A stretch of 51,038 nt of DNA, taken from a virus. Lineage: Duplodnaviria; Heunggongvirae; Uroviricota; Caudoviricetes. The position numbers were made by a program, and so were the translations under genes. This document shows, piece after piece, positions 18,337 to 48,363 of this stretch (the stretch's first letter is position 1; each line of letters opens with the position of its first letter). Where the stretch lies: the IMG/VR virus record IMGVR_UViG_2778261009_000008, positions 1 to 51,038 of that record; one strand, given 5' to 3'. Under the pieces are notes generated by a model. That model saw only the letters and a list, made by a program, of their open reading frames with translations, was not told the origin of the DNA and made no database searches.

Positions 18337-18412
18337 GGCCCTTTAGCTCAGTGGTGAGAGCGAGCGACTCATAATCGCCAGGTCGCTGGTTCAAATCCAG
18401 CAAGGGCCACCA
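18337..18412 (+). tRNA. tRNA with anticodon CAT (Met, or Ile2 if lysidine-modified)
   Basis: Hand-folded cloverleaf: acceptor GGCCCTT/AAGGGCC, D-arm GCTC…GAGC, anticodon loop CTCATAA, T-arm GCTGG-TTCAAAT-CCAGC, encoded CCA. Confidence 0.85.
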
Positions 18413-18421
18413 TATCACATA

Positions 18422-18498
18422 CCGCCATTAGCTCATCGGGATAGAGCGCCAGCCTTCGGAGCTGGCTGCGCGGGGTTCGAGTCCTCGATGGCGGTCCA
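18422..18498 (+). tRNA. tRNA-Arg (anticodon TCG)
   Basis: Hand-folded cloverleaf: acceptor CCGCCAT/ATGGCGG, anticodon stem CCAGC/GCTGG with loop CTTCGGA (U33, G37), T-loop TTCGAGT, encoded CCA. Confidence 0.8.
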
Positions 18499-19261: not shown

Positions 19262-20640
19262 TGCTGTGAAGTGTTAAATTCCTCACAATTCAGTAAGTTG
19301 ACAGTTGCCTGTCAGACTGGGCATTTGTTAAAAAAATTTCGCATGGTGAATCCCCCTGTGCGGAGGGGCGACTGGTGAACGGTATGATCTCTTTGATGAT
19401 CGTAAGCGAGAATACGCGGGTTTAGTGTCACCGGGCTGAACTCACCGGGAGGCACCCGGCACCATGCTCATGGTGATACAGAAATGCGGCTTCAGCCCCT
19501 CTCTGGAGGGGCTTTCTTATGGACAAAAAAGCCCGCGCTGGGAGACGCGGGCGGCAAGGAATAAACAATAAAACGTGAAGTAATATTTCAGCTGGCGAAT
19601 AATACCCCATAGTAATCACTCTGCGCAACTGCGCGGCCTTTTTCGAATTGCGGGCTGTAGTCTCCCTTCTGCCGGGTGGCCTGGTTGCAGATTTCTTCAT
19701 GGGGTAGGGTTCGGCAGTTAAAGCAGCGATGGCGCTGGGGCGTCGTGCTATAGGCGTTGAGCTGGATACCGGGCGTTTTGAACAGACTGCGCAGGCAATC
19801 AGGGATATATTTATCGGTAGCTGTTTGCAGAAGTAATCTCCCAAAATTCCATTTTTGGAATGCAGTGGTTGTTGCTGTAGTGTGGGCAAGTTCTGGAACT
19901 GGCTTCGTCCATTGCAGATGATTGTTAGCTGGATATCAGTTACCTCATGGAAATGTTAAATGACTCACAGTTCGGTTGATGGACTATTGTCTGATTGATG
20001 GAAGTCTTGTAAAAACGAGCCAGCATAGTGAATCCCCCTGTGCGGAGGGGCGTCTGACATGGTCTCCATAGCGATGGTCACAATACGCAGATTCAGTAGT
20101 CAGGCTGAATCTACCGGGAGGCACCCGGCACTATGCTGCTTATGGTGTATACACAGCGATCGGCCCCTCTCCTGAGGGGCTTTTTTTGTGCGGGAAAAGG
20201 CTGTGTTGTGAAATGTTAAATTCCTCACAATTCATGAGGTTGATGATTGTCTGATTGATGAGGAGTTTGTTAAAAAAAGCGGGCATGGTGAATCCCCCTG
20301 TGCGGAGGGGTGATATCGTATCATTTCCTGTGTGGTCGACTGATATCACGGACATTTGTTCACCGGGAGGCACCCGGCACCATGTAGTATACAGAGATTA
20401 GGCATACATCCAGGCTCCTCATTGCAGGAGCCTTTTTACATGCAAAAAAAACCGCTCCAGGGAAGAGCGGTTGGCAAGGAATAAATAACAAAACGTGAAG
20501 TAATTTATTCAGCGCCCTAATAATACCTTACAGTAATCACATTGCGCAACTGTATGTAAGGGCGTATTTCTTTTTTGCGGGCTGTTTTGTGTGACTTTTG
20601 TGTTTCCGGAGGTCAGCCCGTGCCTTCTCTGACTCAGAAC
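19262..20640. repeat. Triplicated non-coding module (conserved blocks A-B-C plus hairpin, three tandem paralogous copies)
   Basis: Block A (GAAATGTTAAATTCCTCACAATTCA) at about 19270/19949/20210; block B (GTGAATCCCCCTGTGCGGAGGGG) at 19347/20028/20287; block C (CACCGGGAGGCACCCGGCACCATG) at 19443/20112/20361; each followed by a GC hairpin (T-run clear only in copy 2); an about 80-bp block D at 19554 and 20473. Confidence 0.6.
19681..19835 (+). pseudogene. Duplicated 3' fragment of the DNA methyltransferase gene
   Basis: About 125 bp near-identical to 18156-18290 (the C-terminal 47 codons of the 17238-18296 gene) with a TCG to TAG change; no start or upstream gene body. Confidence 0.7.
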
Positions 20641-41124: not shown

Positions 41125-41868
41125 ATGACACAGACTGAATCAGCGATTCTGGCGCATGCCCGGCGGTGTGCGCCAGCGGAGTCGTGCGGCTTCGTGATAA
41201 GCACCCCGGAGGGCGAACGGTACCAGCCCTGCGTGAATATCTCCGCAGAGCCGGAGGCGTATTTTCGTATTGCACCGGAAGACTGGCTGCAGGCACAGAT
41301 GCAGGGGGAGATTGTGGCGCTGGTCCACAGTCATCCCGGTGGACTGCCCTGGCTGAGCGAGGCGGACCGGCGGCTGCAGATAAAGAGTGCCCTGCCCTGG
41401 TGGCTGGTCTGCCGGGGTGACATTCACCGGTTCCGCTGTGTGCCGCACCTGACCGGACGGCGCTTTGAACACGGTGTGACGGACTGTTACACCCTGTTCC
41501 GGGATGCTTACCATCTGGCGGGGATAACGCTGCCGGATTTTGTGCGTGAGGATGACTGGTGGCGCAACGGTCAGAACCTGTACCTGGACAACCTGGCGGA
41601 AAACGGCTTTTACCGGGTGTCTCCGTCCCGTGCACAGGCAGGCGATATTCTGCTGTGCTGCTTTGGCGCATCGGTGCCGAATCATGCCGCCATTTACTGT
41701 GGCAACGGTGAACTGCTTCACCATATACCTGAACAACTGAGTAAACGGGAGAGGTATTCAGAGAAATGGCAACGACGAACGCATTCTGTCTGGCGTCACC
41801 GCCACTGGTCCGCATCTGCCTTCACGGGGATTTACAACGATTTGGTCGCCGCATCAGCCTGTATGTGA
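41125..41868 (+). CDS. K: Tail assembly protein K (JAB/MPN + NlpC/P60 domains)
   Basis: About 247 aa from MTQTESAILAHARRCAP…; motif HSHPGG (JAB) and Cys/His peptidase block. Confidence 0.85.
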   Translation: MTQTESAILAHARRCAPAESCGFVISTPEGERYQPCVNISAEPEAYFRIAPEDWLQAQMQGEIVALVHSHPGGLPWLSEADRRLQIKSALPWWLVCRGDIHRFRCVPHLTGRRFEHGVTDCYTLFRDAYHLAGITLPDFVREDDWWRNGQNLYLDNLAENGFYRVSPSRAQAGDILLCCFGASVPNHAAIYCGNGELLHHIPEQLSKRERYSEKWQRRTHSVWRHRHWSASAFTGIYNDLVAASACM

Positions 41869-42446
41869 ACACGGCAGCGGAGGCCATCCGTGCCCTGTCG
41901 CTGCAGGTGCCGGGATTCCGCTGTCAGATGAACGAAGGCTGGTATCAGATACGTATTGCCGGTGAGGATACCGCGCCGGAGGCGGTGTATGCCCGTCTTC
42001 ATGAGCCACTGAGCGGGAGGGCCGTGATTCATATTGTACCGCGGCTGGCAGGGGCCGGGGGAAATGGTGTTTTTCAGGTTGTGCTGGGGGTTGCAGCGAT
42101 TGTCGGGTCATTTTTCACTGGTGGTGCAACACTGGCGGCATGGGGCGCAGCCCTGAGTGCCGGAGGGCTGACTGCCACCACGATGCTGTTCTCACTGGGG
42201 GCCAGCATGATTCTGGGTGGTGTGGCCCAGATGCTGGCCCCGAAGGCAAAGACGCCGGAATACAAAAGTACGGATAACGGTAAACAGAACACGTATTTTT
42301 CGTCACTGGACAACATGATTGCTCAGGGTAACCCGATGCCGGTGCCTTACGGTGAAATGCTGGTTGGTTCACGACGGATATCCCAGGACATCAGCACCCG
42401 TGATGAGGGCGGTGACGGGAAAGTGGTGGTTATCGGGCGGGGATGA
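41766..42446 (+). CDS. I: Tail assembly protein I
   Basis: 226 aa; overlaps the K 3' end as in lambda; C-terminal hydrophobic Gly/Ala-rich segment. Confidence 0.8.
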   Translation: MATTNAFCLASPPLVRICLHGDLQRFGRRISLYVNTAAEAIRALSLQVPGFRCQMNEGWYQIRIAGEDTAPEAVYARLHEPLSGRAVIHIVPRLAGAGGNGVFQVVLGVAAIVGSFFTGGATLAAWGAALSAGGLTATTMLFSLGASMILGGVAQMLAPKAKTPEYKSTDNGKQNTYFSSLDNMIAQGNPMPVPYGEMLVGSRRISQDISTRDEGGDGKVVVIGRG

Positions 42447-42613
42447 AAATAAAAAAATCCCGCAGAGTTAGCGGAGCTGCGGGAGAGAACGATGAAGATT
42501 AACTTTATGGAGTTATTTTTCAGGCATCAAAAAAGTAACGCAGCGTCATTATTGCGGCTACAGGCAATTGCCGGAAATGTGAAGAGTTTCAGAAATTTTA
42601 TTCCGTCATGACA

Positions 42614-42643
42614 CAGGCACCCTCCGGGGTGCCTGTTGTTTTT
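42614..42643 (+). terminator. Strong hairpin plus T-run in the I-J intergenic insert
   Basis: CAGGCACCC-TCCG-GGGTGCCTG followed by TTGTTTTT, about 45 bp upstream of the J start. Confidence 0.5.
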
Positions 42644-42686
42644 GGGCATAAACAGATTCAGACATCAGACAGGAGAGGGGGACAGT

Positions 42687-45600
42687 GTGGGTAAAGGGGG
42701 CGGCAAGGGGCACACACCGCGTGAGGCGAAGGACAATCTCAAATCAACGCAGATGATGAGCGTGATTGATGCCATTGGTGAGGGACCGGTGGAAGGTCCG
42801 GTGAAGGGACTGCAGAGTATTCTGGTGAACAAAACCCCGCTGACGGACACGGACGGTAATCCTGTGATACACGGTGTGACCGCCGTCTGGCGTGCCGGGG
42901 AGCAGGAGCAGACACCGCCGGAAGGCTTTGAGTCCTCCGGGGCGGAAACCGCACTGGGCGTGGAGGTGACGAAGGCAAAGCCGGTGACGCGCACCATCAC
43001 GTCAGCGAACATTGACCGTCTGCGGGTCACCTTCGGGGTGCAGTCACTGGTGGAGACCACCTCAAAGGGTGACCGTAACCCCTCTTCTGTCCGCCTGCTG
43101 ATTCAGCTTGAGCGTAACGGTAACTGGGTGACGGAGAAGGATATCACCATTAACGGCAAGACTACCTCGCAGTACCTGACGTCGGTGATTCTGAATAATC
43201 TCCCTGAGCGCCCCTTTAACATCCGGATGGTCAGGGAGACGGCGGACAGCACCACGGACCAGCTGCAGAACAGAACGCTGTGGTCGTCATACACCGAAAT
43301 CATCGATGTGAAACAGTGCTACCCGAACACGGCGATTGTGGGGCTGCTGGTGGATGCGGAGCAGTTTGGTGGCCAGCAGCTGACGGTGAACTACCATATC
43401 CGTGGTCGCATCATCCAGGTGCCGTCAAACTATGACCCGGAAAAACGCACCTACAGCGGTATCTGGGACGGGAGTCTGAAACCGGCATACAGCAATAACC
43501 CGGCCTGGTGCCTGTGGGACATGCTGACCCACCCGCGCTACGGGATGGGAAAACGCCTGGGGGCCGCGGATGTGGACAAGTGGGCACTGTATGCCATCGG
43601 GCAGTACTGCGACCAGACGGTCCCGGATGGTTTCGGAGGCACAGAGCCGCGGATGACCTTTAATGCGTACCTGTCACAGCAGCGTAAGGTGTGGGATGTC
43701 CTGGGGGATTTCTGCTCGGCGATGCGCTGTATGCCGGTATGGAACGGCCAGACGCTGACGTTCGTTCAGGACCGCCCGTCGGATGTGGTGTGGCCGTACA
43801 CCAACAGCGATGTGGTGGTGGATGATAACGGCGTGGGGTTCCGCTACAGCTTCAGTGCCCTGAAGGACCGGCACACGGCGGTGGAGGTGAATTACACTGA
43901 CCCGCAGAACGGCTGGCAGACTTCCACGGAACTGGTGGAAGACCCGGACGCCATCCTGCGCTACGGACGCAATCTGCTGAAGATGGATGCGTTTGGCTGT
44001 ACCAGCCGCGGTCAGGCCCACCGTGCCGGACTGTGGGTGATAAAGACCGAACTGCTGGAAACGCAGACGGTGGATTTCACGCTCGGGTCACAGGGGCTGC
44101 GGCACACACCCGGTGACATCATTGAAATCTGTGATAACGACTACGCCGGGACCCTGACCGGCGGACGCATCCTGTCCATGGATGCCGCCAGTCGCACCCT
44201 GACGCTGGACCGTGAGGTGACCCTGCCGGAGACAGGTACATCGACGGTGAACCTGATTAACGGCAGCGGTAAGCCGGTGCGCGTGGACATCACTGCACAC
44301 CCCGCCCCTGACCGGATACAGGTCAGCGTCCTGCCGGATGGCATGGAGACATACGGTGTGTGGGGACTCTCCCTGCCGTCACTGCGTCGTCGCCTGTTCC
44401 GCTGTGTTTCCATCCGGGAAAACACGGACGGCACTTTTGCCATCACGGCAGTGCAGCACATACCGGAAAAAGAAGCCATCGTGGATAACGGGGCCCGCTT
44501 TGAGCCGCTGTCCGGTTCACTGAACAGCGTCATCCCGCCGGCAGTGCAGCACCTCACGGTGGAGGTGAGTGCCTCAGACGGCCAGTATCTGGCGCTGGCG
44601 AAATGGGACACGCCGCGGGTGGTGAAGGGCGTGCGCTTCAGTCTGCGCCTGACCAGTGGCAGTGGTGAAAACAGCCGCCTGGTGACCACCGCCATCACTG
44701 CCGACACGGAGCACCGTTTCAGTGGCCTGCCTCTGGGGGAATACACCCTGACGGTCAGGGCGATAAACAGCTACGGCCAGCAGGGCGAACCTGCCACCAC
44801 CACGTTCCGGATTAACGCCCCGGCAGCACCGGACAGCATTGAGCTGACGCCGGGGTATTATCAGATAACAGCAGTACCGGTGCTGGCGGTGTATGACCCG
44901 ACGGTACAGTATGAATTCTGGTTCTCAGAAAAACGCATCACGGACACGGCACAGGTGGAAATCTCTGCCCGTTATCTGGGGACAGGCAGCCAGTGGAGTG
45001 TCTCCGGCCCGCACATTAAGCCGGGGAGGGATTTCTGGTTTTATGTGCGCAGCGTCAACCTGGTGGGGAAATCTGCGTTTGTGGAAGCCAGTGGCCGGGC
45101 GAGCAATGATGCGGAAGGGTATCTGGACTTTTTCAGAGGAGAAATCGGGAAGACACATCTGGCACAGGGGATGTGGGAGCTGATTGATAACAGCCAGCTT
45201 GACGATGAGATGGCGGAGATGAAGACCACCATCACCGAAACCCGCAATGAAATCACGCAGACGGTCAGTAAAACTCTGGAAGACCAGAGTGCCACCATAC
45301 AGCAGATACAGCGGGTGCAGACAGACACAAATAACGACCTGGCTGCGCTGTACATGCTGAAGGTGCAGAAAACAAAAAACGGCATTCCGTATGTTGCCGG
45401 TATAGGTGCGGGGATTGAGGATGCTGATGGCCAGCCCCTGAGCAATATACTGCTGCAGGCGGACCGTATCGCGATGATTAACCCGGAGAACGGCAACACC
45501 ACGCCGCTGTTTGTGGCGCAGGGGAATCAGCTGTTCATGAACGATGTGTTCCTGAAGCGGTTGTTTGCAGTGAGCATCACCTCGTCCGGCAATCCCCCGA

Positions 45601-46635: not shown

Positions 46636-48363
46636 ATGACAGTCAGAATATCGGGTGTGCTGAAGGATGGTACGGGAAAAGCGGTACCGGGATGCACGAT
46701 AGAGCTGAAAGCGCGCCGCACAACGGAGACGGTGATTGTCACCACGGTGGCGTATGGTCAGCCGGGGGAAACCGGCAGTTACAGTATGGATGTTGAGCCG
46801 GGGTTGTACCGGGTGACGCTGAACACGGAAGGGTACGCGCCGTCATATGTGGGTGACATTCTGGTGAAGGCGGATTCTGCACCGGGAACGCTGAATAAAT
46901 TTCTGATGGACCTGGAGGACGCACAGTATTACCCGAAAGCCCTTGCAGAGCTGGAAGCGGTGGCAGCGGAAATCCTGAAACGTGCAGAAGCGTCAGCGGC
47001 CAGTGCGGAGGAGGCAAAAAAACGGGCAGAGAATGCGCGGGGACCGAAGGGGGATAAGGGGGACACCGGGCCGCAGGGTATTCCCGGGCCAAAAGGCGAT
47101 ACCGGCGAGCGGGGGCCAAAGGGTGAGCGTGGTGAGACAGGACCACAGGGGCTTCAGGGTGTGAAAGGTGAACGGGGAGAGAAGGGCGAAAAAGGCGAGC
47201 CGGGAGGGCCGGATGCGACGACGGCACAGAAGGGAATTGTGCAGTTAAGCAGCACAACGGACAGTGATGATGAAACGAAGGCAGCCACCCCGAAAGCGGT
47301 GAAAGCGGCAATGGACAAAGCGGACGGATGCCTGGAGAAAGCGAAAAACGGTGACGATATCCCGGATAAGGTGAAGTTTCTGAACACCGTGGGAGCAGCC
47401 AGAGTATACGGGCGGGACATTCATACGGGGGCCGGTGAATGGACCACGAGTGAGTTTGTCGCCTGGCTGAAAGAAAAAGGGGCATTTGACCAGCCTTACT
47501 GGATGATGAAGGCATCACTGCCTGCGGTAATGAATAAAGTCATCACGGATGTCGGACCGGGAAAACTCAATCTGGGTGGCTGCGCCATTGAGGTGATGGG
47601 GACGTATAACGCAGCCATAGTCCGGGTCACCATTGGCGAATACGGTGCAACGGGGTTTATTAATGGCACGGTCTGTACCTGTACGGTTTACGGCGACACA
47701 CAGTATTTCCACTGGCGGGTGGATTACAGCACAAAAAACAAACCGGATACGGTCAGCCAGCGGGATGCCAGCACGACGCAGAAAGGTGTGGTGCAGTTAA
47801 GCAGTGATACTGGCAGTAATGACGAAACAAAGGCAGCCACGCCGAAGGCCGTGAAGGCGGCAATGGATGTGGCAAATGAAGCGAAAACAAAGGCAGAAGA
47901 GGCTGCAGCAGGAGGTGGTGTTCCCGGTCCGAAAGGAGAGAAAGGTGACCCCGGAGCACAGGGTCCGAAAGGTGAAACGGGAGCAACAGGCCCCGCTGGT
48001 CCGCGGGGAGCGCAGGGACCGAAAGGGGAGAAAGGAGACCCCGGTCCCAGAGGTGAGCGTGGAGAAACCGGGCCGATGGGGCCGCCCGGGGCATCAGACG
48101 GGAAGAGCCGGGTTGTGGGTATCAGGCTGGGTAATAAACAGACTTATGCGCCGCAAACAGACAGCACTACATGGGCAGTGGATTTGGATATTGGTGCGAT
48201 GATTACGGGGATTGGCGGTTACAACGACGGAAACAAAACCCTTATTGACAGGGTATCTTACAGGCCGCTTCAGGTGACATTTGATGGTTCTCAGTGGCGT
48301 ACAGTCAGCGTGGGTGAGTATGTGTCGTCAGGAGCTTCGGGGTTTGAGTATTTTCCATTATAA
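46636..48363 (+). CDS. stf: Side tail fibre protein (Stf-like) with collagen-like Gly-X-Y repeats
   Basis: 575 aa; N-terminus [15 protein letters not shown]… parallels lambda Stf; two fibre-repeat motifs (QKG.VQLSS…[15 protein letters not shown]) and two Gly-X-Y tracts. Confidence 0.85.

What the first reader, a model, noticed from the sequence alone, without database searches (positions are those of the whole stretch)
42447..42686. Intergenic insert between tail genes I and J with a possible 39-aa ORF and a strong terminator-like hairpin
In lambda, I and J are nearly contiguous. Here about 240 bp separate them, containing a hairpin after the I stop (TCCCGCAG…CTGCGGGA), a possible small ORF (42483-42602, MKINFMELFFRHQKSNAASLLRLQAIAGNVKSFRNFIPS) and a 9-bp GC-rich hairpin with T-run only about 45 bp upstream of the J start. 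A terminator inside the tail operon is unexpected and may mark an inserted element or a small RNA.
Basis: seen in the sequence. Interest (0 to 1): 0.4.

Follow-up and report, generated by a model that had tools for sequence, protein, structure and literature searches.

The report
Known prophage small RNA between tail genes
The 240-base gap between tail genes I and J holds a copy of a published Hfq-dependent small RNA (EcOnc22-24 in EHEC, PasB in EPEC) read from the strand opposite the tail genes, so the proposed 39-aa gene is not real and the finding is largely explained by known biology.

Summary
I stops at 42446, J starts at GTG 42687, and the 240-bp spacer has two strong hairpins. The ORF is really at 42492-42611.

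The left hairpin plus its A-run is a rho-independent terminator on the minus strand. It ends a ~90-nt sRNA (about 42541 to 42452) that is 89/91 identical to EcOnc22/23/24 of E. coli O157 Sakai. Those RNAs are Hfq-crosslinked, give a ~85-nt Northern band and are unstable without Hfq. The sRNA is also homologous to PasB of EPEC E2348/69. Both published probes and the published coordinates place these RNAs in the I-J spacer, antisense to the tail genes.

The 39-aa ORF is not conserved. Its start is ACG in 23 of 72 variants, and lengths run from 15 to 54 aa.

The right hairpin is a plus-strand terminator-like structure kept by compensatory changes. Lambda and Gifsy-2 have an analogous hairpin in their short I-J spacers, so it is ordinary there. 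By textbook knowledge, Q-modified polymerase should read through it.

Extras: a conserved CRP-like box upstream of the sRNA promoter, and tandem arrays of up to three sRNA cassettes in some relatives. The sRNA's function is still unknown.

The parts
41766..42446 (+). Tail assembly gene I (226 aa), stop TGA 42444-42446
   Evidence: ORF list. Annotated as I in VT1-Sakai at 95% DNA identity.
42452..42541 (-). Predicted EcOnc22/PasB-family sRNA, about 90 nt: 5'-GCGUUACUUUUUUGAUGCC...CUGCGGGAUUUUUU-3'. The ends are predicted to within about 5 nt, not measured in this strain.
   Evidence: 89/91 identical to Sakai EcOnc22/23/24. The first 23 nt of the published Northern probe equal the window plus strand at 42481-42503, and the rest follows with gaps in the printed text. 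The Sakai Hfq-CRAC peak maps to 42475-42535 on the minus strand after a +128 nt version shift. The PasB 3' end lies 6 nt from the I stop in E2348/69.
42447..42484 (-). Rho-independent terminator of the sRNA: stem UCCCGCAG (42484-42477) / CUGCGGGA (42465-42458), 11-nt loop, then U7AUUU (42457-42447)
   Evidence: Terminator scan on the minus strand and MFE fold. The stem is almost invariant and the loop varies from 0 to about 16 nt across the variants listed (20 of them aligned). One relative carries the compensatory CCCACAG/CUGUGGG.
42492..42502 (-). Conserved single-stranded island UUAAUCUUCAU just upstream of the terminator.
   Evidence: Conservation across variants. Seed proposal in bioRxiv 10.64898/2026.05.13.724894.
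42509..42514 (-). Second conserved island, AACUCC, inside an otherwise variable sRNA body
   Evidence: Alignments.
42529..42534 (-). Internal U6 tract near the 5' end of the sRNA; possible Hfq contact (inferred)
   Evidence: Conserved U-run. It lies inside the mapped Hfq-CRAC peak.
42548..42575 (-). Core promoter of the sRNA: -10 AATAAT (42553-42548), 16-nt spacer, weak -35 equivalent TCCGGC (42575-42570)
   Evidence: The homologous hexamers are TTCACA-16-TATAAT (11/12) in E2348/69 and TTTGCA-16-TATAAT in Stx2_14744. The -10 is TATAAT in 39, AATAAT in 17 and TATCAT in 13 of 72 variants. The window version falls below the scan threshold, but it is identical to the Sakai Sp15 copy, and the probe for the Sakai copies gives a Northern band.
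42578..42593 (.). Conserved box TGTGA-N6-TCAGA, a CRP-like site with one mismatch, centred about -44.5 from the predicted start. Regulator unknown.
   Evidence: Pattern search (not significant by itself at 4 versus 1.9 expected). The box is invariant apart from its two central bases in the BLAST-collected relatives. It is repeated once per cassette in tandem arrays.
42613..42646 (+). Plus-strand terminator-like hairpin: 10-bp stem 42613-42636, then UGUUUUUGGG
   Evidence: Scan and fold, z -4.0. 98.9% of cells paired; C-G to U-A compensatory change in 4 variants; 14 variable U.G wobble cells against 2 C.A cells, which fits selection on the plus-strand RNA.
42672..42689 (+). J ribosome-binding site GGAGAGGGGG and GTG start codon (42687)
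   Evidence: Sequence. VT1-Sakai annotation.
42492..42611 (+).
   Evidence: Not conserved. No Pfam or PHROG hit.

Best explanation
The I-J spacer has two separate parts.

(1) An sRNA cassette on the strand antisense to the tail operon. It consists of a conserved upstream box, a sigma-70 promoter (-10 AATAAT), a ~90-nt RNA (about 42541 to 42452) and a rho-independent terminator made from the hairpin next to the I stop codon. This RNA is a near-identical copy of EcOnc22/23/24 of E. coli O157 Sakai and a homologue of PasB of EPEC E2348/69.

Shown for those homologues by others: they bind Hfq, need Hfq for stability, run at about 83-85 nt, and PasB forms Hfq-mediated chimeras with many mRNAs.

Inferred for this copy: it is made in the lysogen from its own promoter and acts in trans as an Hfq-dependent base-pairing RNA, through the conserved unpaired islands upstream of its terminator. 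Its terminator stops antisense transcription from running into gene I.

(2) A plus-strand terminator-like hairpin about 50 nt before J. This is an ordinary feature of the lambdoid I-J junction. Inferred: Q-modified polymerase reads through it during lytic growth, while unmodified transcription in the lysogen is stopped there or the upstream mRNA is protected.

The 39-aa ORF is a by-product of the sRNA sequence on the other strand.
For: - Published probes. The first 23 nt of the EcOnc22/23/24 Northern probe (GGGAGAGAACGATGAAGATTAAC) equal the tail-sense strand at window 42481-42503 and occur in the Sakai Sp15, Sp14 and Sp11 I-J spacers, so the RNA is antisense. The PasB probe AATCCCGCAGTGATCGCGGAGCT is likewise the tail-sense strand of the left hairpin.
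- Published coordinates. PasB is at NC_011601 1466343-1466261 (minus strand). I ends at 1466255 and J starts at 1466496, both on the plus strand. The EcOnc22/23/24 Hfq peaks fall in the three Sakai I-J spacers on the strand opposite the tail genes. After a +128 nt version shift calibrated on AgvB1, the EcOnc22 peak is window 42475-42535.
- Published properties. About 85 nt and destabilised in a hfq deletion. 83 nt, Hfq-dependent, 37 RIL-seq interactions including ler, perB, bfpB, bfpI, ftsZ and hflX.
- Sequence identity. 89/91 to EcOnc22-24.
- Anatomy. Minus-strand terminator. The homologous promoter scores 11/12 in E2348/69. The -10 hexamer is conserved in 72 variants.
- Conservation pattern. 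Conserved islands sit in a variable body. A purely cis-antisense RNA would not need this.
- Distribution. 147 phage records and 1806 of 5426 complete E. coli genomes carry the spacer.
- Plus-strand hairpin. Compensatory and wobble changes favour the plus-strand RNA. Analogous hairpins occur in lambda and Gifsy-2.
Against: - No expression data exist for this particular strain.
- The window's core promoter is weak (TCCGGC / AATAAT) and fails the consensus scan. The Sakai Sp15 copy has the identical promoter, and the probe for the three Sakai copies gives a band.
- The predicted start is 15 nt upstream of the RNA-seq-derived PasB 5' end in E2348/69. The true 5' end, or any processing, is therefore unsettled.
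- No target or phenotype is known for EcOnc22-24 or PasB.
- My duplex tests against three RIL-seq partners were not significant, so the seed is unproven.
- The sRNA terminator stem is almost invariant, so it gives little covariation support.
- Rfam 15 has no family for it.
- Read-through of the plus-strand hairpin by Q-modified polymerase is textbook inference and was not tested here.
Confidence: 0.85

Rival explanations
1. The sRNA's main job is in cis. Being perfectly complementary to the late transcript just after the I stop codon, it pairs with tail-operon mRNA of its own phage, or imperfectly with that of related co-resident or superinfecting phages. This would trigger cleavage or alter I/J expression.
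For: The RNA is by construction antisense to the I-J junction of the late mRNA. The position right after the I stop is fixed in all relatives.
Against: Conserved sequence islands within a variable body are not needed for cis pairing. PasB gives Hfq chimeras with many unlinked mRNAs. None of the RIL-seq rows retrieved for PasB names the I-J sense transcript as a partner, though only a few rows were seen. The two roles are not exclusive.
Confidence: 0.15
2. The right-hand hairpin ends a second, plus-strand small RNA, or acts as a regulated attenuator that sets J expression. It would then not be a passive junction hairpin.
For: It is a strong plus-strand terminator with compensatory changes that favour the plus-strand RNA. 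It is conserved even where the loop differs.
Against: No plus-strand promoter was found upstream of it. No Hfq peak on the tail-sense strand is listed in the Sakai I-J spacers. No RIL-seq coordinates fall in 1466400-1466499 of E2348/69 in the held tables. The same kind of hairpin exists in lambda and Gifsy-2, whose spacers leave no room for an RNA gene.
Confidence: 0.1
3. The spacer encodes the 39-aa protein on the plus strand, as a classical protein-coding moron ended by the right-hand terminator.
For: An ATG ORF exists at 42492-42611 and is followed by a terminator. Two phage records annotate short 'hypothetical proteins' in the spacer.
Against: The start codon is ACG in 23 of 72 variants and the anchor is lost in 11 more. 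ORF lengths are 15-54 aa with unrelated C-termini. No Shine-Dalgarno sequence or promoter is evident. No Pfam or PHROG family matches.
Confidence: 0.03
4. A type I toxin-antitoxin pair: a small toxic peptide on one strand and an antisense RNA on the other.
For: Small ORFs lie on both strands (39 aa plus, 40 aa minus) overlapped by an antisense RNA.
Against: Neither peptide is hydrophobic or membrane-like. The plus-strand ORF is not conserved; conservation of the 40-aa minus-strand ORF was not tested. There are no family hits. The RNA behaves as an Hfq-dependent trans-acting sRNA.
Confidence: 0.02

Closest known systems
EcOnc22 / EcOnc23 / EcOnc24 of E. coli O157:H7 Sakai prophages Sp15, Sp14, Sp11 (Tree et al. 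2014, Mol Cell, PMC4104026)
   Same: Same locus (I-J spacer), same strand (antisense to the tail genes), 89/91 identical sequence, an identical promoter region in Sp15 and the same terminator.
   Different: Two base substitutions (positions 3 and 38 of the RNA). Expression in this strain is untested. J is intact here but split in VT1-Sakai.
PasB of EPEC E2348/69 prophage PP6 (Pearl Mizrahi et al. 2021, Sci Adv, PMC8550237; Zhu, Shabalina and Storz 2026, bioRxiv 10.64898/2026.05.13.724894)
   Same: Same position and orientation. The terminator stem, the 5' GCGUUA, the U-tract, the AACUCC island, the AUCUUCAU island and the upstream box are all shared.
   Different: Only about 71% identical over the RNA. 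The E2348/69 promoter is near-consensus (TTCACA-16-TATAAT) while the window's is weak. The J-proximal part of the spacer differs.
Morons of lambdoid phages (Juhala et al. 2000, J Mol Biol; cited from own knowledge and from the reference list of PMC4104026)
   Same: A self-contained transcription unit, with its own promoter and terminator, sits between two late genes that are much closer together in related phages (60 bp in lambda, 71 bp in Gifsy-2).
   Different: The cargo is an sRNA, not a protein gene, and it points against the late operon. No closely related phage with an empty site was found: all I/J relatives at 88% identity or more have a 233-345 bp spacer.
Other prophage-encoded Hfq sRNAs of EHEC/EPEC: AgvB, AsxR, StxS, HnrS (EcOnc10-12), PasA/C/D, STnc100
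   Same: Short, terminator-ended, Hfq-dependent, multicopy through multiple prophages, and carried in late regions.
   Different: Different sequences and loci: those lie near PR', the lysis genes or stx. The cmscan of 41500-43500 gave no Rfam match inside the spacer. The function of this one is unknown, whereas AgvB and AsxR are sponges and HnrS represses hha.

Membership tests
EcOnc22-24 / PasB sRNA family | Encoded in the spacer between tail genes I and J, on the strand antisense to them, with its 3' end a few nt from the I stop | tested here: met
   Window geometry. Same geometry in Sakai Sp15/Sp14/Sp11 and in E2348/69 PP6.
EcOnc22-24 / PasB sRNA family | Sequence homology to the published RNAs and their probes | tested here: met
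   89/91 identical to EcOnc22-24 and about 71% to PasB. The first 23 nt of the probe match exactly.
EcOnc22-24 / PasB sRNA family | 3' rho-independent terminator with a U-tract | tested here: met
EcOnc22-24 / PasB sRNA family | Own sigma-70 promoter | tested here: inconclusive
   The window hexamers TCCGGC/AATAAT fail the scan. The homologous positions score 11/12 and 10/12 in relatives. The Sakai Sp15 copy has the same weak promoter, and the shared probe gives a Northern band in Sakai.
EcOnc22-24 / PasB sRNA family | Hfq binding, Hfq-dependent stability, about 83-85 nt transcript | not testable with these tools
   Shown experimentally for the homologues only.
Any Rfam 15 family | Covariance-model match | tested here: not met
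   No hit inside the spacer at E <= 1. No Rfam family matches this sRNA.
Moron (lambdoid phage accessory transcription unit) | Independent promoter + cargo + terminator between genes that are adjacent in related phages | tested here: met
   Cassette anatomy. Lambda and relatives have 57-60 bp spacers and Gifsy-2 has 71 bp, all without the cassette. Caveat: the cargo is an RNA, and no near-identical empty site was found.
Intrinsic terminator (plus-strand hairpin 42613-42646) | G+C-rich stem-loop followed by a U-tract | tested here: met
   The structure is maintained by compensatory change. Termination activity is not testable here.
CRP-dependent promoter | TGTGA-N6-TCACA site at a canonical distance (-41.5 or -61.5) from the start | tested here: inconclusive
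   One-mismatch site at 42578-42593. Four such sites occur in the window against 1.9 expected. The centre is about -44.5 from the predicted start, or -59.5 from the annotated PasB 5' end. Strong conservation is the only real support.
Type I toxin-antitoxin | Conserved small hydrophobic toxin ORF overlapped by an antisense RNA | tested here: not met
   The plus-strand ORF is not conserved. There are no family hits.

The most novel reading that the evidence does not exclude
The I-J junction of EHEC/EPEC lambdoid phages may be a dedicated slot for interchangeable antisense sRNA cassettes. Each cassette carries the same upstream regulatory box, possibly CRP-responsive, which would tie sRNA output to carbon status.

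The cassettes can be stacked in tandem arrays of two or three with different bodies, as observed in IMG/VR contigs. Besides their trans targets, they might pair with the I-J region of late mRNA of their own or related phages. That could silence leaky tail-gene expression or interfere with superinfecting relatives.
Probability: 0.12. Interest if true: 0.55.

Novelty: already known. Interest (0 to 1): 0.25.

Why it matters
It removes a false lead. There is no new small protein and no unexplained terminator in the tail operon. An unannotated stretch found in about a third of complete E. coli genomes is assigned to an experimentally detected but functionally uncharacterised sRNA.

Three modest additions could help work on that sRNA:
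- EcOnc22-24 (EHEC) and PasB (EPEC) are the same family at the same locus. The PasB papers I read do not say this.
- The cassette has a strongly conserved upstream box and, in most variants, a near-consensus promoter. The predicted start lies about 15 nt upstream of the annotated PasB 5' end.
- The cassette is modular and sometimes tandemly stacked.

None of this changes current understanding of phage biology.

Tried and rejected
- Rfam scan of the region at E <= 1: only two chance-level hits, both outside the spacer.
- AgvB/AsxR-type anti-sRNAs: rejected, because they lie near PR'.
- HnrS (EcOnc10-12): a different sRNA in different prophages.
- Taking the EcOnc22 coordinates at face value put the Hfq peak on the right-hand hairpin. 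This was traced to the NC_002695.1 to .2 shift of about 128 nt, calibrated on AgvB1.
- Whole-collection scan of species-representative genomes with the box pattern: mostly chance hits. The only real ones were E. albertii and three tiny contigs that look like E. coli contamination.
- CRP-site statistics: not significant on their own.
- Seed inference by duplex energy against three RIL-seq partner fragments (E2348C_2648, ler, ftsZ): long duplexes were meaningless. The 14-nt window tests gave 7-48% of shuffles as good, so no conclusion.
- Search for other 'ATGAAGATTAA' sites in the window: nothing notable.
- Supplement of Sy et al. 2020 for mapped 5'/3' ends: not held.
- Covariation in the sRNA terminator: the stem is almost invariant, hence uninformative.

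Full report
**Observation**

Gene I (226 aa) ends at 42446. J begins at GTG 42687, by homology to lambda J and by the VT1-Sakai annotation. The spacer is therefore 42447-42686, 240 bp.

Both hairpins are real:
- TCCCGCAG (42458-42465) / CTGCGGGA (42477-42484), with an 11-nt loop.
- A 10-bp stem with 7 G-C pairs at 42613-42636, followed by TGTTTTTGGG.

The quoted 39-aa ORF exists but lies at 42492-42611, not 42483-42602.

The left hairpin is preceded by A7 on the plus strand, so on the minus strand it reads stem + U7AUUU. That is a rho-independent terminator for the opposite strand.

**Distribution**

The spacer is not peculiar to this window.
- It is 98% identical in VT1-Sakai (Sp15), CP-1639 and Stx2a_WGPS6, and 74-86% identical in about 140 other Stx and lambdoid phage records.
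- A 501-bp query spanning it matches 1806 of 5426 complete E. coli genomes, with up to 13 places per genome. PGAP annotates nothing between 'tail assembly protein' and 'gpJ'.
- Among species-representative genomes, only E. albertii and three tiny, probably contaminant, contigs carry it. This agrees with the Escherichia/Shigella restriction reported for PasB.

**Identity**

Two independent published data sets place an Hfq-dependent sRNA exactly here, on the strand antisense to the tail genes.

(a) Tree et al. 2014, Table S2, lists EcOnc22 (Sp15), EcOnc23 (Sp14) and EcOnc24 (Sp11). They are Hfq-CRAC peaks on the Sakai plus strand, with a Northern band of about 85 nt that is destabilised in a hfq deletion.
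- In Sakai these three prophages have I and J on the minus strand, and the three peaks fall in their I-J spacers.
- The first 23 nt of the Northern probe (GGGAGAGAACGATGAAGATTAAC) equal the tail-sense strand at window 42481-42503 and occur in all three Sakai spacers. The RNA is therefore on the window's minus strand.
- The published coordinates refer to NC_002695.1, while the copy I could read is version .2, which is 128 nt longer by my recollection of the older record's length. Calibration on AgvB1 needs a shift of that size. With it, the EcOnc22 Hfq peak maps to window 42475-42535 on the minus strand and contains the probe site.

(b) Pearl Mizrahi et al. 2021, Table S6, gives PasB of EPEC E2348/69 as 1466343 to 1466261 on the minus strand, 83 nt, with probe AATCCCGCAGTGATCGCGGAGCT.
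- In that genome I ends at 1466255 and J starts at 1466496, both on the plus strand.
- The probe is the tail-sense strand of the left hairpin.

The window RNA is 89/91 identical to EcOnc22-24 and about 71% identical to PasB. A cmscan of 41500-43500 against Rfam 15 gave no hit in the spacer. In the text I could read, the PasB papers do not mention EcOnc22-24.

**Anatomy of the cassette (minus strand)**

- *Promoter.* In E2348/69 the scan finds TTCACA-16-TATAAT (11/12), and in Stx2_14744 TTTGCA-16-TATAAT. The homologous window hexamers are TCCGGC and AATAAT (42575-42570 and 42553-42548). They fall below the scan threshold but are identical to the Sakai Sp15 copy, and the probe for the Sakai copies gives a band. 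Over 72 unique variants from IMG/VR and GenBank, the -10 is TATAAT in 39, AATAAT in 17 and TATCAT in 13.
- *Predicted RNA.* The predicted start is near 42541, giving about 90 nt: GCGUUAC-U6-...-AACUCC-...-UUAAUCUUCAU-...-terminator. The MFE is -20.9 kcal/mol with z -3.6.
- *5' end.* The predicted start is 15 nt upstream of the RNA-seq-based PasB 5' end. The Sakai Hfq peak includes the U6 tract, which favours the longer form.
- *Structure.* Only the terminator is structurally conserved. Its stem is almost invariant while the loop varies from 0 to about 16 nt. One relative has the compensatory pair CCCACAG/CUGUGGG.
- *Conservation.* The body is variable except for two islands.
- *Upstream box.* A box TGTGA-N6-TCAGA (42578-42593) is invariant, apart from its two central bases, in the BLAST-collected relatives. 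It resembles a CRP site, but it is not statistically remarkable and its spacing is non-canonical. PasB is higher in LB at 27 C than in DMEM. That fits catabolite control, but this is inference only.

**The ORF**

Of 72 variants, 23 have ACG in place of ATG and 11 have lost the anchor sequence. The rest give ORFs of 15-54 aa with unrelated C-termini, and only MKIN is shared. Neither this ORF nor the 40-aa minus-strand ORF matches Pfam or PHROGs. It is not a gene.

**The right-hand hairpin**

- It folds strongly on the plus strand (-26 kcal/mol, z -4.0).
- Across 14 distinct versions, 98.9% of cells pair. One pair switches C-G to U-A in four versions. There are 14 variable U.G wobble cells against only two C.A cells. 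This asymmetry fits selection on the plus-strand RNA.
- Lambda (60-bp spacer) and Gifsy-2 (71 bp) have no sRNA cassette, but each has a terminator-like hairpin at the same place: CCGCC-loop-GGCGGUUUUGU(C/U)AUUUAUGGAGC.
- In a spread sample of phages, all close I/J relatives (88% identity or more) have 233-345 bp spacers, and the lambda-like group has 57-60 bp.

So the hairpin before J is an ordinary junction feature, and the sRNA cassette sits between the I stop and that hairpin. That Q-modified polymerase ignores such terminators is established lambda biology (own knowledge); I did not test it.

**Function**

For the homologues, Hfq binding and Hfq-dependent stability are shown. PasB forms RIL-seq chimeras with bfpB, bfpI, ler, perB, ftsZ, galE, glk, gshA, hflX and a PP9 gene. 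No target has been validated and no phenotype reported.

My attempt to locate the seed by duplex energies against three partner fragments was inconclusive. The most likely mode is a lysogen-expressed, trans-acting Hfq sRNA. A cis-antisense effect on the I-J late mRNA is not excluded.

**Verdict**

The finding is real. It is explained by an already described, though functionally uncharacterised, prophage sRNA plus an ordinary junction hairpin. Interest is low to moderate.

Noticed in passing
L100 4413-5110 (IMGVR_UViG_2698536657_000013); L060 9815-10240; also L114, L134, L075: In about 3% of related loci the I-J spacer holds tandem arrays of two or three sRNA-like cassettes, each with its own copy of the conserved box. 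One array includes a second cassette type (terminator CUCCCGUUAAUAUCC...GCGGGAG, body ...CUCCUUAAGGUGACUAUUCG) that has no Rfam hit.
   Followed up: partly
literature: PMC4104026 Table S2/S3C versus PMC8550237 Table S6: EcOnc22/23/24 (EHEC Sakai) and PasB (EPEC E2348/69) are the same sRNA family at the same I-J locus. The PasB entry carries no EcOnc note, and the 2026 PasB preprint does not contain the word EcOnc.
   Followed up: yes
L016 744-793 (E2348/69 1466343-1466392): The near-consensus promoter TTCACA-16-TATAAT predicts a PasB start about 15 nt upstream of the annotated 83-nt RNA 5' end. PasB may therefore be about 98 nt as a primary transcript, or be processed.
   Followed up: partly
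window 19312-19524, 19994-20189, 20254-20443 (+): Three tandem copies of the prophage sRNA STnc100 (Rfam RF02076, 121-172 bits). Each is preceded about 40 nt upstream by the repeated motif TGTTAAAT(TC/GA)CTCACA (19272, 19954, 20214).
   Followed up: no
window 18337-18409 and 18422-18495 (+): Two tRNA genes. They were not examined further.
   Followed up: no
L105 (IMGVR_UViG_2534681940_000025), about 460-650: A foreign segment carrying an ORF (MTKNTRFSPEVRQRAV...), probably an insertion-sequence transposase, sits directly downstream of the conserved box. It cuts the sRNA cassette off from its promoter region.
   Followed up: no
L028 (Parendozoicomonas haliclonae, 460-bp contig), L035 (Streptomyces flavalbus, 3.4-kb contig), L020 (Asaia platycodi, 546-bp contig): Tiny contigs in non-enterobacterial assemblies match this E. 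coli prophage I-J region at 80-99.7% identity. They are most likely assembly contamination.
   Followed up: partly
L013 398-739 (PPompW_699) and 18 of the 72 module variants: In one lineage the J-proximal half of the spacer is replaced by unrelated sequence, giving a 342-bp spacer. The replacement brings its own hairpin (AAACCCCGGUAUC...GAUACCGGGGUUU) flanked by A- and U-rich runs. A hairpin before J is therefore kept even when the sequence is swapped.
   Followed up: partly
window 46636-48363 (+): A 575-aa ORF with two blocks of collagen-like Gly-X-Y repeats lies downstream of J. It may be a side tail fibre, but this was not checked.
   Followed up: no
L009 595 (phage 2851 vhsJ) and window 42636: Some records start J upstream, inside the terminator hairpin. 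In the window the first in-frame start after a stop is TTG 42636. The extension is not conserved and is probably an annotation artefact.
   Followed up: partly
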